A stretch of DNA of 1,197 bases from a phage, in the sequence record OR846210.1. One strand, 5' to 3'. Under the pieces are notes generated by a model. It was not told where the DNA came from. It searched no databases and saw only the letters and a list, made by a program, of their open reading frames with translations. Shown here in pieces: positions 1-1,197 of the stretch (the first letter of the stretch is position 1; the number at the start of each line of letters is the position of its first letter). A program made the translations under genes and the position numbers.

Positions 1-181
1 CGATTAATCTATAATCCAGTTTTTTTCTGTTTTTTTGAACCATAGATATACATCTCATTTGCCAGACGCTACCAAAATAAAAAATTAAGACGGCGATTGT
101 TATTGGCCTGCATAAGTAATCGATATAATAAAAATTCATTACTGCGAATAATCTCATGTCGCCAGTATTTCCGTAATCCAT
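1..181 (-). CDS. speculative small hydrophobic protein, N-terminal part; frame continues beyond window start
   Basis: The minus-strand frame is stop-free from position 259 to position 2, where the window ends (86 codons), despite ~29% GC. First ATG at 181..179 gives MDYGNTGDMRLFAVMNFYYIDYLCRPITIAVLIFYFGSVWQMRCISMVQKNRKKLDYRLI..., with a transmembrane-like stretch followed by basic residues. The only Shine-Dalgarno-like element (AAGGA) is too close to the ATG (1-nt spacer). Y/F/I/N/K-rich composition is also what chance translation of AT-rich DNA gives. Confidence 0.2.
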   Translation of the reverse strand, partial: MDYGNTGDMRLFAVMNFYYIDYLCRPITIAVLIFYFGSVWQMRCISMVQKNRKKLDYRLI

Positions 182-402
182 TTCCTTTTTTAGATATGGA
201 AAATAATAAGCAATGTAAGAGTTTGATTTTTTCTTCCTCCAATGAAGAAAGCTAGATTGTTAAATAAATGTTATTATCGTGGGGGGTTCACGTATCAATT
301 GGTAAAAATACTATAAGATGGTTTTTTATAATACTTCATTTGCTATGCAAACTGAACATTTGATGCTAAAAAATAATAAAGGGTATTACTTTAATTCAAC
401 AC
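1..402. other. AT-rich (~29% GC) segment with phased A/T tracts; probable intergenic or horizontally acquired DNA
   Basis: Hand count gives 117 G+C in positions 1-400. Homopolymeric T7 runs at 20-26 and 30-36, A-rich tracts at 74-85 and 366-380, and several TATAAT-like hexamers. Composition changes abruptly at ~400-430, exactly at the 3' end of the coding block. Confidence 0.5.
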
Positions 403-423
403 CGCCGGGCTTTATACCCGGCG
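403..423 (-). terminator. candidate intrinsic terminator hairpin downstream of the 151-aa gene
   Basis: Perfect inverted repeat cgccggg (403-409) / cccggcg (417-423) with a 7-nt loop (ctttata), 7 nt beyond the TGA stop on the minus strand. The following minus-strand sequence is AU-rich (GUGUUGAAUUAAAGUAAUACCCUUUAUUAUUUUUU), but the U-run is displaced ~20 nt from the stem, so this is not a textbook terminator. Confidence 0.4.
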
Positions 424-429
424 AGAGAT

Positions 430-885
430 TCAACAATCGTATTGCCAGCTACTAACTAAGGCATAAAGGTGGCTGGGGGAGTAGCGCCAGCTATCGTTTA
501 GTCCGAGAAATTCAGCGCAAAACTCGCTGCAAAACAGTTTATCTTTGCGCTCCCGGTTATACAGCGCGATACCGAGCGCGCCCTGCCAGTCATAGCGTTT
601 GCCGTTATGTTTGCGGAAAAAGGCCTCCACTTCCGGCAACGTGGCCTTTAACGGTAGCTTATCCCACTTATCGTCCGGTAACGGTATTATCTTTCCCCGC
701 ACGCCGCGATCGCGAAACGATGCAGAGTAGCAGAGGTATTCATTACCGCCGTGCGCCACCGCCAGTTCACAGTGAGAGTAGATACCGCGCGTGACTTTGC
801 GCGTGAGCCAGTCGGCAAACCTGGCGATGCCGCGATACTCCGATCGCCCCTTATAGCAAGCGAGCCAGACGGTGGTTTGACTCAT
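430..885 (-). CDS. hypothetical Cys/His-rich protein, 151 aa; possible circularly permuted papain-fold (NlpC/P60-superfamily, YaeF/YiiX/LRAT-like) hydrolase
   Basis: Complete ORF from ATG (885..883) to TGA (432..430) with enterobacterial-type codon usage (ccg, ctg, gcg, cgc frequent). Start overlaps the upstream stop as ATGA. No N-terminal hydrophobic signal sequence; net positive charge by my count. Functional guess rests on His38 in YSHCELAVAHGG and Cys119 in FCSEFCAEF, which resemble the His-then-Cys order of permuted NlpC/P60 enzymes. This is motif recollection only. Confidence 0.75.
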   Translation of the reverse strand: MSQTTVWLACYKGRSEYRGIARFADWLTRKVTRGIYSHCELAVAHGGNEYLCYSASFRDRGVRGKIIPLPDDKWDKLPLKATLPEVEAFFRKHNGKRYDWQGALGIALYNRERKDKLFCSEFCAEFLGLNDSWRYSPSHLYALVSSWQYDC

Positions 886-1197
886 GGCTGCCAGCCTGAT
901 GAATAGTCGTAGTCGAGCACTTCCTGGATATCCCCCAGCGCTTCTACCGCCGCAATATGCCGCTGCGCGTTGGCAAACAGGCGCATATCGTGATCCATAG
1001 TGACGGTTTCAAACTGCGCGGCGATGTCGTTGGTCAGTTTAATCAAACCGTTATTTTTGGTCTGCCACATTAACCCTGCCGGAATCTGCTTTGCCTGACC
1101 CATTCTGGTGAGTGACATTTGCTGAATACGGCTGTTAGCATCGCTGTGGAAATGGTTGCCGTCGATAACGATATAATCGGTGGTAACGGTGTCGCGG
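882..1197 (-). CDS. hypothetical protein, 5'-truncated by the window edge (C-terminal ~105 codons visible); function unknown
   Basis: The track ORF 882..1118 (78 aa) starts at an ATG with no purine-rich Shine-Dalgarno in the preceding ~20 nt (minus-strand upstream reads gctaacagccgtattcagcaa). The same frame stays open to position 1196 with no stop, reading ...RDTVTTDYIVIDGNHFHSDANSRIQQ before MSLTRMGQ... Codons there are typical enterobacterial preferred codons (acc, gtt, atc, gac, ggc, aac, ttc, cac, agc, cgt, cag). The stop TGA (884..882) overlaps the next gene's ATG (885..883). Confidence 0.6.
   Translation of the reverse strand, partial: RDTVTTDYIVIDGNHFHSDANSRIQQMSLTRMGQAKQIPAGLMWQTKNNGLIKLTNDIAAQFETVTMDHDMRLFANAQRHIAAVEALGDIQEVLDYDYSSGWQP

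What the first reader, a model, noticed from the sequence alone, without database searches (positions are those of the whole stretch)
395..435. Abrupt base-composition boundary coinciding with the gene end and hairpin
GC content moves from roughly mid-50s % in the coding block to about 29% within a few tens of bp, exactly at the stop codon and hairpin. Such sharp boundaries commonly mark junctions between DNA of different evolutionary origin or strongly AT-rich regulatory regions bound by nucleoid proteins.
Basis: seen in the sequence. Interest (0 to 1): 0.4.

Follow-up and report, generated by a model that had tools for sequence, protein, structure and literature searches.

The report
Prophage-remnant gene end meets AT-rich cargo
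The sharp GC drop is real and marks where the last tail-module gene of a known Salmonella prophage remnant (Def4) and its hairpin abut an AT-rich, H-NS-bound cargo segment holding a decayed sugar-acetyltransferase gene; this is an ordinary, already understood kind of genome seam.

Summary
The best single GC change point lies after base 399: 29.1% GC to the left, 53.9% to the right (LLR 33.8; highest of 500 shuffles 7.8). It sits at the outer foot of an 8-bp stem-loop (403-423), 30 nt past the stop codon (430-432) of a minus-strand gene.

The window is Salmonella enterica, at one end of the known defective prophage Def4 (STM4196-STM4219). The GC-rich side holds the STM4199 and STM4198 homologues, the last genes of the tail-fibre module. 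The AT-rich side is a cargo segment: a promoter region plus the 5' remnant of a hexapeptide acetyltransferase gene. That remnant has two stop codons and is truncated here, but the gene is intact in serovar Infantis. STM4196 follows just outside the window.

In other genera, homology runs through the hairpin and stops at its foot. What follows is GC-normal DNA or a different AT-rich glycosyltransferase cassette. In E. albertii and one viral contig the cassette is flanked by two copies of the hairpin.

Published ChIP-exo data for S. Typhimurium 14028s place one of the stronger H-NS regions over this AT-rich island. A preprint calls the neighbouring STM4196-STM4197 intergenic region transcriptionally silent.

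The parts
882..1197 (-). 3' part (C-terminal ~105 aa) of the STM4199 homologue, a DUF4376 tail-fibre-assembly-like protein. Its stop overlaps the next gene's start (ATGA at 882-885).
   Evidence: Pfam DUF4376 E 2.6e-7 and 6.7e-12 for the full 201-aa ORF in L002. PHROG 1807 'tail fiber protein' E 7e-28. Annotated as STM4199 in the Infantis record.
430..885 (-). STM4198 homologue, 151 aa, the last gene of the Def4 tail-fibre module. GC 54.4%, GC3 0.64. Stop codon TGA at 430-432.
   Evidence: ORF list. 'locus tag STM4198' in AFYI01000007.1. PHROG 1128 E 2.6e-60, no Pfam or NCBIfam hit. The exact protein is present in 14,933 collection blocks, always after J-I-H-DUF4376. AF2 model pLDDT 84; top Foldseek hit 3kw0, a cysteine peptidase, E 8e-4.
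403..423 (-). GC-rich stem-loop (CGCCGGGU-AUAAA-GCCCGGCG on the minus-strand RNA), 6 nt after the stop. It is the last conserved element of the phage-side module and a probable transcript 3'-end/terminator structure that lacks a U-tract.
   Evidence: Fold z = -3.5. The stem is conserved in 12 distinct versions from several genera, with variable loops and one compensatory G-C to A-U pair. In 724 kb of fetched loci the motif occurs only right after STM4198 homologues, plus a second copy after the GT cassette in L054 and L078-81. The consensus terminator scan does not call it.
399..400 (.). Composition change point and homology breakpoint (the seam).
   Evidence: Change-point analysis. Downstream sequences diverge immediately after the hairpin between genera.
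114..399 (.). AT-rich (about 28% GC) non-coding stretch between the hairpin and the acetyltransferase start. It is the probable promoter region of the cargo gene and lies inside an H-NS-bound region in S. Typhimurium.
   Evidence: GC values. H-NS_Region_547 and RpoD_Peak_2025 of PMC11770342 map here by approximate coordinate transfer of +-100 bp. No Rfam family reaches a meaningful score. No strict sigma-70 consensus match.
1..113 (-). 5' remnant of a WcaB/CysE-like hexapeptide O-acetyltransferase gene (ATG at 111-113). It is a pseudogene here, with stop codons at 69-71 (codon 15) and 9-11 (codon 35). About 45 bp beyond the window's left edge it is truncated and replaced.
   Evidence: Translations of the window, L002 and the intact 158-aa Infantis gene. 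NCBIfam EpsC/CysE/WcaB-type hits and Pfam Hexapep for the intact gene. Homology to Infantis ends at L002 1267.

Best explanation
The GC step is the seam between two modules of different ancestry inside the Salmonella defective prophage Def4.

Right of the seam (GC about 54%) is the end of the tail-fibre operon. It holds the STM4199 and STM4198 homologues, closed by a conserved GC-rich stem-loop. That stem-loop most likely forms the 3' end of the operon's transcript (inferred).

Left of the seam (GC about 29%) is a 'moron'-type cargo segment acquired separately. It has an AT-rich promoter region followed by a hexapeptide sugar O-acetyltransferase gene, which is a dead remnant in this strain. 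The glycosyltransferase-like STM4196 follows just outside the window.

The slot immediately after the hairpin is a recurrent cargo position. It is empty in some genera and filled with different AT-rich transferase genes in others. In E. albertii and one viral contig the cassette is bracketed by two copies of the hairpin.

Because the cargo is far more AT-rich than the 52% GC host, it is coated by H-NS and largely silent. H-NS occupancy is shown by published ChIP-exo in a close relative. The silencing is reported for the neighbouring STM4196-STM4197 intergenic region. Repression by H-NS as the cause is inferred.
For: Identity of the locus. The window is 100% identical to the S. Kentucky contig OR850896.1 and 97.6% identical to S. 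Infantis SARB27, where the genes carry STM4198 and STM4199 tags and sit after the V-gtrABC-W-J-I-H genes. The same layout is seen in six Salmonella chromosomes. Def4 is named in PMC5322425 and PMC3591323. The downstream 242-aa protein is identical to LT2 Q8ZKK9.

Seam. The change point is at 399/400. In Phytobacter, Superficieibacter and about 15 IMG/VR contigs (73-83% protein identity) the hairpin follows the stop codon. After it come unrelated 53-62% GC DNA or other cargo of 32-39% GC.

Empty versus filled site. L049 and L004 read STM4198-hairpin-convergent gene. L054 and E. albertii L078-81 read STM4198-hairpin-[about 940 bp, 39% GC cassette with an STM4196 homologue]-hairpin-convergent gene or its remnant. 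Twenty bp of L049 match L054 twice.

Cargo nature. The intact acetyltransferase has GC 34.8% and STM4196 has 38.4%, with GC3 0.29-0.32 against 0.64 for STM4198. Both match PHROG families; STM4196 matches 1962, 'glycosyltransferase', in the moron category. A pair with 54% and 58% identity lies inside the tail-fibre region of a Mu-like Salmonella prophage.

Chromosomal empty site. All 5,426 complete E. coli genomes lack the window's DNA. In the one E. coli locus inspected, lysC lies directly next to yjbD.

H-NS. Regions 546 and 547 (4431235-4433185) have in-vitro intensities of 1.78 and 2.62 RPPM. Most regions in the first listed part of the table are 0.5-1.5.

Silent site. The STM4196-STM4197 intergenic region is used as a neutral insertion site because it is 'transcriptionally silent'.
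Against: The hairpin lacks the U-tract of a canonical intrinsic terminator, and the scan does not call it. Termination is therefore inferred, not shown.

Within Salmonella, the AT-rich 450 bp is always linked to STM4198. In one variant (L083) the whole block, both sides of the seam together, is replaced. The seam is therefore not a breakpoint in recent Salmonella history.

The H-NS coordinates were transferred to the window by landmark distances (+-100 bp), not by sequence alignment. Region 547 appears to spill about 0.2-0.3 kb into STM4198.

No enrichment of the published high-affinity H-NS motif was found.

An RpoD ChIP-exo peak lies in the AT-rich stretch, so it is not wholly inert.

No hairpin copy or other repeat was found bracketing the Salmonella acetyltransferase cassette itself.
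Confidence: 0.8

Rival explanations
1. The seam is the prophage-chromosome boundary (an att site). The AT-rich DNA would be ordinary Salmonella chromosome flanking the remnant.
For: STM4198 is the last recognisably phage-type gene, and the tail-fibre module is at the end of the remnant. In Superficieibacter and Phytobacter the hairpin is directly followed by non-phage-looking genes: a nucleotidyltransferase-like gene, an SPFH protein and RtcR.
Against: The AT-rich segment is absent from all complete E. coli genomes, and in the one E. coli locus inspected lysC and yjbD are adjacent. Its genes belong to phage protein families and recur inside another prophage. STM4196 is listed as a Def4 marker alongside STM4198, STM4205 and STM4213. 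An STM4196 homologue sits in the same slot in E. albertii and in L054. No att-like direct repeat was looked for across the whole element.
Confidence: 0.05
2. The low GC is simply what intergenic DNA plus a decaying pseudogene drifts to under AT-biased mutation, with no foreign origin needed.
For: The left part of the window is non-coding or pseudogene. It diverges faster between serovars than the coding side: 96.2% against 98.2% identity to Infantis.
Against: The intact acetyltransferase gene in Infantis is already 34.8% GC with GC3 0.32. The intact STM4196 is 38.4% GC with GC3 0.29. The 58% identical homologue in another prophage sits in a stretch that is 31-35% GC. The AT-richness therefore predates the decay. 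The step is also too abrupt, about 10 nt, for drift alone.
Confidence: 0.05
3. The AT-rich tract is primarily a selected regulatory region, with curved or UP-element-rich promoter DNA and an H-NS nucleation site that controls the downstream cargo genes. The step would reflect function rather than ancestry.
For: An RpoD ChIP-exo peak (Peak_2025) and a strong H-NS region map to it. Both change between culture and macrophage, with log2FC -1.36 and -0.89. Candidate -35/-10 pairs can be read on the minus strand, for example TTGATA-16-TAATAA at about 298-271 (read).
Against: The gene it would control is dead in this strain. The strict promoter consensus scan finds nothing there. The H-NS motif is not enriched. 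The AT-richness extends through the coding sequences of the cargo, not just the promoter. This reading is compatible with the main explanation rather than an alternative to it.
Confidence: 0.1

Closest known systems
Def4 defective prophage of Salmonella enterica (STM4196-STM4219; 'BTP6' in D23580), nomenclature of Casjens 2011 as used in PMC5322425
   Same: Same genes in the same order: V, gtrABC, W, J, I, H, STM4199, STM4198, then STM4196. Same chromosomal interval next to yjbD/rluF/pepE. STM4198 and STM4196 proteins are identical to those in many Salmonella genomes.
   Different: Nothing essential. The window is a serovar-level copy, identical to a Kentucky contig. The papers do not discuss this particular seam, the acetyltransferase remnant or the hairpin.
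Phage 'morons' / lysogenic-conversion cargo (Hendrix-Juhala concept), such as the gtrABC and oac O-antigen modification cassettes
   Same: An extra gene with a different base composition, inserted between elements that are adjacent in related phages. It sits at the end of a late operon next to the tail-fibre genes and encodes sugar-modifying-type enzymes. In the E. albertii/L054 version it ends with a hairpin.
   Different: The proteins are soluble hexapeptide-acetyltransferase and STM4196-type enzymes of untested substrate, not Gtr or Oac membrane proteins. In this window the gene is a pseudogene. A 20-bp hairpin duplication flanking the cassette is not part of the classical description.
H-NS xenogeneic silencing of AT-rich horizontally acquired DNA in Salmonella (Navarre 2006; Lucchini 2006, PMC1550270)
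   Same: DNA about 20 percentage points below genome GC. It is occupied by H-NS in ChIP-exo, and the neighbouring STM4196-STM4197 intergenic region is reported as transcriptionally silent.
   Different: Derepression in an hns mutant was not checked for these genes. The occupancy was mapped here only approximately.
Rho-independent terminator / bidirectional terminator between convergent genes
   Same: A GC-rich 7-8 bp stem with a 5-nt loop directly after a stop codon. In other genera it is shared with a convergent gene whose last three codons and stop lie inside it.
   Different: There is no U-tract on either strand in Salmonella, and the consensus scan does not call it.

Membership tests
Def4 prophage remnant (Salmonella) | Gene order ...V-gtrABC-W-J-I-H-STM4199-STM4198-(STM4197)-STM4196 | tested here: met
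   Annotation of AFYI01000007.1 with STM tags. Called genes in L018-L023. The 242-aa protein is identical to LT2 Q8ZKK9.
Def4 prophage remnant (Salmonella) | Chromosomal position in the yjbD-lysC interval | tested here: met
   The yjbD/rluF/pepE side is seen in L001 and L018-L022. In the E. coli locus inspected, lysC lies directly next to yjbD. The lysC side of the Salmonella element was not fetched.
Phage moron / cargo cassette | Present between elements that are directly adjacent in related phages or prophages | tested here: met
   L049/L004 (empty) against L054/L078 (filled with the STM4196-type cassette). Salmonella carries a different filling, the acetyltransferase.
Phage moron / cargo cassette | Base composition distinct from the surrounding phage genes | tested here: met
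   29% against 54% GC, and GC3 0.29-0.32 against 0.64.
Phage moron / cargo cassette | Own promoter | tested here: inconclusive
   RpoD_Peak_2025 of PMC11770342 maps to about window 260-375 by landmark transfer. The strict consensus scan finds no site.
Phage moron / cargo cassette | Own terminator | tested here: inconclusive
   A second hairpin copy follows the GT cassette in L054 and L078-81. None was found after the Salmonella acetyltransferase in Infantis.
H-NS-silenced xenogeneic DNA | AT content well above the genome mean | tested here: met
   29-34% GC against 51.5% over the 25-kb locus.
H-NS-silenced xenogeneic DNA | H-NS occupancy in vivo | tested here: met
   Published ChIP-exo regions 546 and 547 in 14028s. 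The transfer to window coordinates is approximate (+-100 bp) and in a different serovar.
H-NS-silenced xenogeneic DNA | Derepression when H-NS is removed | not tested
   Supplements of PMC1550270 and PMC4223078 are not held or contain no data for these genes.
Intrinsic (Rho-independent) terminator | GC-rich stem-loop directly after the gene | tested here: met
   8-bp stem, z = -3.5, conserved across genera.
Intrinsic (Rho-independent) terminator | U-rich tract immediately 3' of the stem | tested here: not met
   The minus-strand tail is GUGUUGAAUU, and the scan reports 0 terminator-like sites.

The most novel reading that the evidence does not exclude
The 20-nt GC-rich hairpin after STM4198 may be more than an operon end. 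It could be a specific joint at which AT-rich sugar-transferase cassettes are inserted or excised with duplication of the hairpin. That would make it a small hairpin-bounded cassette slot at the end of P2/Mu-type tail-fibre operons, exchanged between prophages of Salmonella, Escherichia albertii and other Enterobacteriaceae.
Probability: 0.2. Interest if true: 0.4.

Novelty: already known. Interest (0 to 1): 0.15.

Why it matters
It matters little beyond housekeeping. The result shows that a composition step flagged by eye corresponds to a real module joint in a well-known Salmonella prophage remnant. It also shows that the AT-rich side behaves as expected for foreign DNA, being H-NS-bound and apparently largely silent.

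Three by-products are useful:
- The 'gene' annotated in this AT-rich stretch (STM4197 / STM14_RS22045) is probably (not verified) an out-of-frame ORF laid over a dead acetyltransferase gene.
- The slot after the hairpin carries different surface-sugar-type transferases in different lineages, which may bear on serovar-specific surface modification.
- The GenBank record 'Salmonella phage S.Kent 1-2-1' (OR850896.1) is a piece of this chromosomal remnant.

Tried and rejected
- Megablast of the window against 5,426 complete E. coli genomes gave no match.
- Searching the two halves separately in the phage collection at low stringency, hoping for different hit sets, found the same two Salmonella records for both.
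- Rfam at E <= 1 gave only a meaningless 22-bit Hrs12 hit against a gathering score of 70.
- The sigma-70 and terminator consensus scans found nothing in 1-450.
- The high-affinity H-NS motif TCGATAAATT with up to 2 mismatches gave 3 matches against 2.2 expected.
- The repeat search found only a 12-nt pair that is probably chance.
- Pfam and NCBIfam gave no family for STM4198 or STM4196. A PDB sequence search for STM4198 found nothing.
- H-NS data were not available from two papers: the Lucchini 2006 supplements are not held, and the Ali 2014 supplement has no gene table. STM locus tags are absent from the ChIP-mini tables, which use STM14_RS tags.
- I considered calibrating 14028s coordinates on the gtr promoter using RpoD peaks 2026/2027. 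I rejected it because those peaks fall inside gtrC by the other calibration.
- I considered the plus-strand 45-aa ORF 318-455, which crosses the hairpin, as a gene. I rejected it: there is only a sub-threshold Pfam hit (E 0.039, below cut-off), and it spans the seam.

Full report
**1. The observation**

The window splits cleanly in two. A likelihood-ratio scan for one GC change point puts it after base 399, with 29.1% GC to the left and 53.9% to the right. The LLR is 33.8, whereas 500 shuffles gave a mean of 2.5 and a maximum of 7.8. In 30-nt windows GC jumps from 17% (370-399) to 63% (400-429).

The only long ORF next to the step is on the minus strand, 430-885, with its stop codon at 430-432. 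Six nucleotides after that stop, the minus-strand RNA can fold into CGCCGGGU-AUAAA-GCCCGGCG (403-423). The 66-nt segment folds better than all but 1 of 200 shuffles, with z = -3.5.

The description is therefore right. The step sits at the outer foot of the hairpin, 30 nt past the stop.

**2. Where the window comes from**

It is 100% identical to OR850896.1, a 6-kb unverified 'Salmonella phage S.Kent 1-2-1' contig. It is 97.6% identical to S. Infantis SARB27.

The Infantis annotation tags the two minus-strand genes as STM4198 and STM4199. Upstream of them lie the tail fibre gene (STM4200), I, J, W, gtrC/B/A, V, D, X, U and the tape-measure gene. Six Salmonella chromosomes that carry the identical STM4198 protein show the same order. 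Downstream they have a 242-aa gene, an SBF-family transporter, yjbD, rluF and pepE. The 242-aa protein is identical to LT2 Q8ZKK9, so I take it to be STM4196.

This is the defective prophage Def4. E. coli has none of this DNA. In the one E. coli locus I inspected, lysC lies directly next to yjbD.

**3. The GC-rich side**

Bases 882-1197 encode the C-terminus of a DUF4376 tail-fibre-assembly-like protein. Bases 430-885 encode STM4198, which belongs to PHROG 1128 and has no Pfam or NCBIfam family.

An alignment of 31 homologues shows invariant YSHCE and CSE motifs. An AlphaFold model (pLDDT 84) has as its only significant PDB match 3kw0, a Bacillus cereus cysteine peptidase (E 8e-4, TM 0.53). 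From my own knowledge, 3kw0 belongs to the permuted-papain YiiX-type group. The PHROG label 'enoyl-CoA hydratase-like' therefore looks like a misnomer. This is a side point.

**4. The AT-rich side**

In Infantis a 158-aa hexapeptide acetyltransferase starts at the position equal to window 113, on the minus strand. It gives WcaB/CysE/EpsC-like hits, all below the equivalog cut-offs.

In the window the same reading frame has stop codons at codons 15 and 35. About 45 bp beyond the window's left edge, homology to the intact gene ends, and very AT-rich DNA leads to STM4196. Window 1-113 is therefore a dead gene fragment, and 114-399 is its former upstream region.

The AT-richness is not a product of decay. 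The intact acetyltransferase is 34.8% GC (GC3 0.32) and STM4196 is 38.4% GC (GC3 0.29). STM4198 is 54.4% GC (GC3 0.64).

**5. Is the seam a joint between DNA of different origin?**

I fetched 14 loci from species-representative genomes and 54 viral contigs that encode STM4198 relatives.

- All loci with at least 90% identical protein and downstream sequence available are of the Salmonella type. They have the hairpin followed by the same AT-rich sequence.
- Loci with 73-83% identity (Phytobacter, Superficieibacter and many IMG/VR contigs) keep the hairpin directly after the stop, but what follows is unrelated.
  - Most have 53-62% GC DNA that is the end of a convergent 261-267-aa gene. That gene's last three codons and stop lie inside the hairpin.
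  - L046 and L056 have a 39% GC stretch leading to an ORF that looks like a family-1 glycosyltransferase, read by eye and not scanned.
  - L054 and E. albertii have an AT-rich spacer and an STM4196 homologue.
- The stem is conserved while the loop varies. One pair shows a compensatory G-C to A-U change.

The clearest case is L049 against L054. Their flanks are 85-89% identical, and 20 bp of L049, the hairpin, match L054 twice. The two copies lie on either side of a roughly 940-bp, 39% GC cassette. In 724 kb of fetched DNA the hairpin motif occurs only after STM4198 homologues and, as a second copy, after that cassette in L054 and E. albertii L078-81.

A 54%/58% identical STM4196-plus-acetyltransferase pair also sits inside the tail-fibre region of an unrelated Mu-like Salmonella prophage. 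There too it forms a 31-43% GC patch.

The AT-rich DNA is therefore mobile phage cargo, and the hairpin foot is where it joins the tail module.

**6. A caveat on 'variably present'**

Within Salmonella, the first 450 bp or so of AT-rich DNA always accompany STM4198.

In one variant (L083), the tail-fibre C-terminus, STM4199, STM4198, the hairpin and the acetyltransferase remnant are all replaced together by another fibre/chaperone set. STM4196 stays in place. The right breakpoint of that replacement coincides with the point where the acetyltransferase is truncated.

Infantis keeps the acetyltransferase but lacks STM4196, and has a different neighbouring operon. The seam is thus an old joint inside a block that now moves as a unit.

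**7. Nucleoid protein binding**

Table S1/S2 of PMC11770342 (ChIP-exo, S. Typhimurium 14028s) lists three H-NS regions in this neighbourhood:

| Region | Coordinates | Assigned gene(s) | In-vitro intensity (RPPM) |
|---|---|---|---|
| H-NS_Region_546 | 4431235-4432344 | RS22040 | 1.78 |
| H-NS_Region_547 | 4432368-4433185 | RS22045 | 2.62 |
| H-NS_Region_548 | 4433438-4434487 | RS22050-65 | 0.62 |

Region 547 falls to 1.55 RPPM in macrophages. Most regions in the first part of the table are 0.5-1.5 RPPM.

I could not align sequences, so I transferred coordinates by landmarks. I used the two RpoD peaks in the pepE divergent promoter region and the distances in L018. I cross-checked with the lysC promoter peak and the 20.4-kb length of Def4. 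This puts the STM4198 stop at about 4432937, +-100 bp.

On that basis, regions 546 and 547 cover the 1.5-kb AT island with 0.2-0.3 kb of spill on each side. The gap before region 548 falls in the GC-rich STM4198/STM4199 block. RpoD_Peak_2025 falls at about window 260-375.

Independently, a preprint states that the STM4196-STM4197 intergenic region is transcriptionally silent and uses it as a neutral marker site.

**8. Mechanism**

- Shown: the composition step, the gene content, the pseudogene state, the cross-genus homology breakpoint, the empty and filled sites with hairpin duplication, and published H-NS occupancy in a close relative.
- Inferred: that the hairpin ends the late-operon transcript (it lacks a U-tract); that H-NS is the cause of the silence; and that the cargo enzymes modify a surface polysaccharide.

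**9. Verdict**

The feature is real and well explained, and of a kind described many times: phage cargo next to tail-fibre genes, with xenogeneic silencing of AT-rich DNA. It lies in a prophage remnant that is already named and catalogued. The only mildly new element is the hairpin-bracketed cassette slot.

Noticed in passing
window 1-113 (minus strand); L002 1228-1425; L001 11637-12113: The hexapeptide acetyltransferase is intact (158 aa) in S. Infantis SARB27. In the window strain it has stop codons at codons 15 and 35 and is truncated after about codon 53. The 62-aa ORF that some annotations call here (window about 1-181, out of frame) overlaps this remnant and is probably spurious. STM14_RS22045 'membrane protein' may be the same ORF.
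   Followed up: partly
L054 5462-5480 and 6419-6437; L078 5793-5811 and 6751-6769: The hairpin after STM4198 is present twice, 18/19 identical in E. albertii. The two copies bracket a roughly 940-bp AT-rich cassette with an STM4196 homologue. The empty site (L049, L004) has one copy. The convergent 261-267-aa gene ends inside the hairpin (last codons R-R-A-stop).
   Followed up: partly
L082 6001-7277: An STM4196 homologue (54% identity) and a hexapeptide acetyltransferase (58% identity) lie side by side as a 31-43% GC patch inside the tail-fibre region of a Mu-like prophage in another Salmonella genome. This suggests a recurrent two-gene cargo set.
   Followed up: partly
L083 3755-4740: This Def4 variant (Logan ERR6046159) has no gtr genes between V and W and a different fibre C-terminus plus a Caudo_TAP chaperone. 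It lacks STM4199, STM4198, the hairpin and the acetyltransferase remnant but keeps STM4196. Its right breakpoint coincides with the acetyltransferase truncation point (L002 1266/1267).
   Followed up: partly
window 430-885 (STM4198 homologue): The family has invariant YSHCE and CSE motifs. The predicted fold's only significant PDB match is the cysteine peptidase 3kw0. The source names 'enoyl-CoA hydratase' (PHROG 1128 and some NCBI records) look wrong. In more distant relatives (Serratia L006) the gene lies before the tail-fibre gene, not at the operon end.
   Followed up: partly
L002 (OR850896.1), whole record: The GenBank record 'Salmonella phage S.Kent 1-2-1' (6,035 bp, coverage 3x, UNVERIFIED_ORG) is a piece of the chromosomal Def4 remnant, running from J to STM4196 plus a REP-like element. 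It is probably host DNA carried over in a phage preparation rather than a phage genome.
   Followed up: no
L002 150-212; L001 11427-11490: A REP-like GC-rich palindromic element (…GGATGACGCGCCTGCGTCGCCATCCGGCA…) marks the far edge of the AT-rich island in both the LT2-type and the Infantis arrangement, although the genes beyond it differ (SBF transporter against a DeoR-Cof-PTS operon).
   Followed up: no
S. Typhimurium 14028s 4432368-4433185 and 4432768-4432817 (approximately window 1-680 and 260-375): In PMC11770342 both H-NS occupancy (log2FC -0.89) and the RpoD peak (log2FC -1.36) over this stretch are lower in intracellular bacteria than in culture. No explanation was sought.
   Followed up: no
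L078-L081 about 6770-8600: In E. albertii the second hairpin is followed by a remnant of the convergent nucleotidyltransferase-like gene and then AT-rich family-1 glycosyltransferase fragments. The element lies at the same yjbD/rluF site as in Salmonella, so the remnant seems to have travelled with flanking DNA from another context.
   Followed up: no
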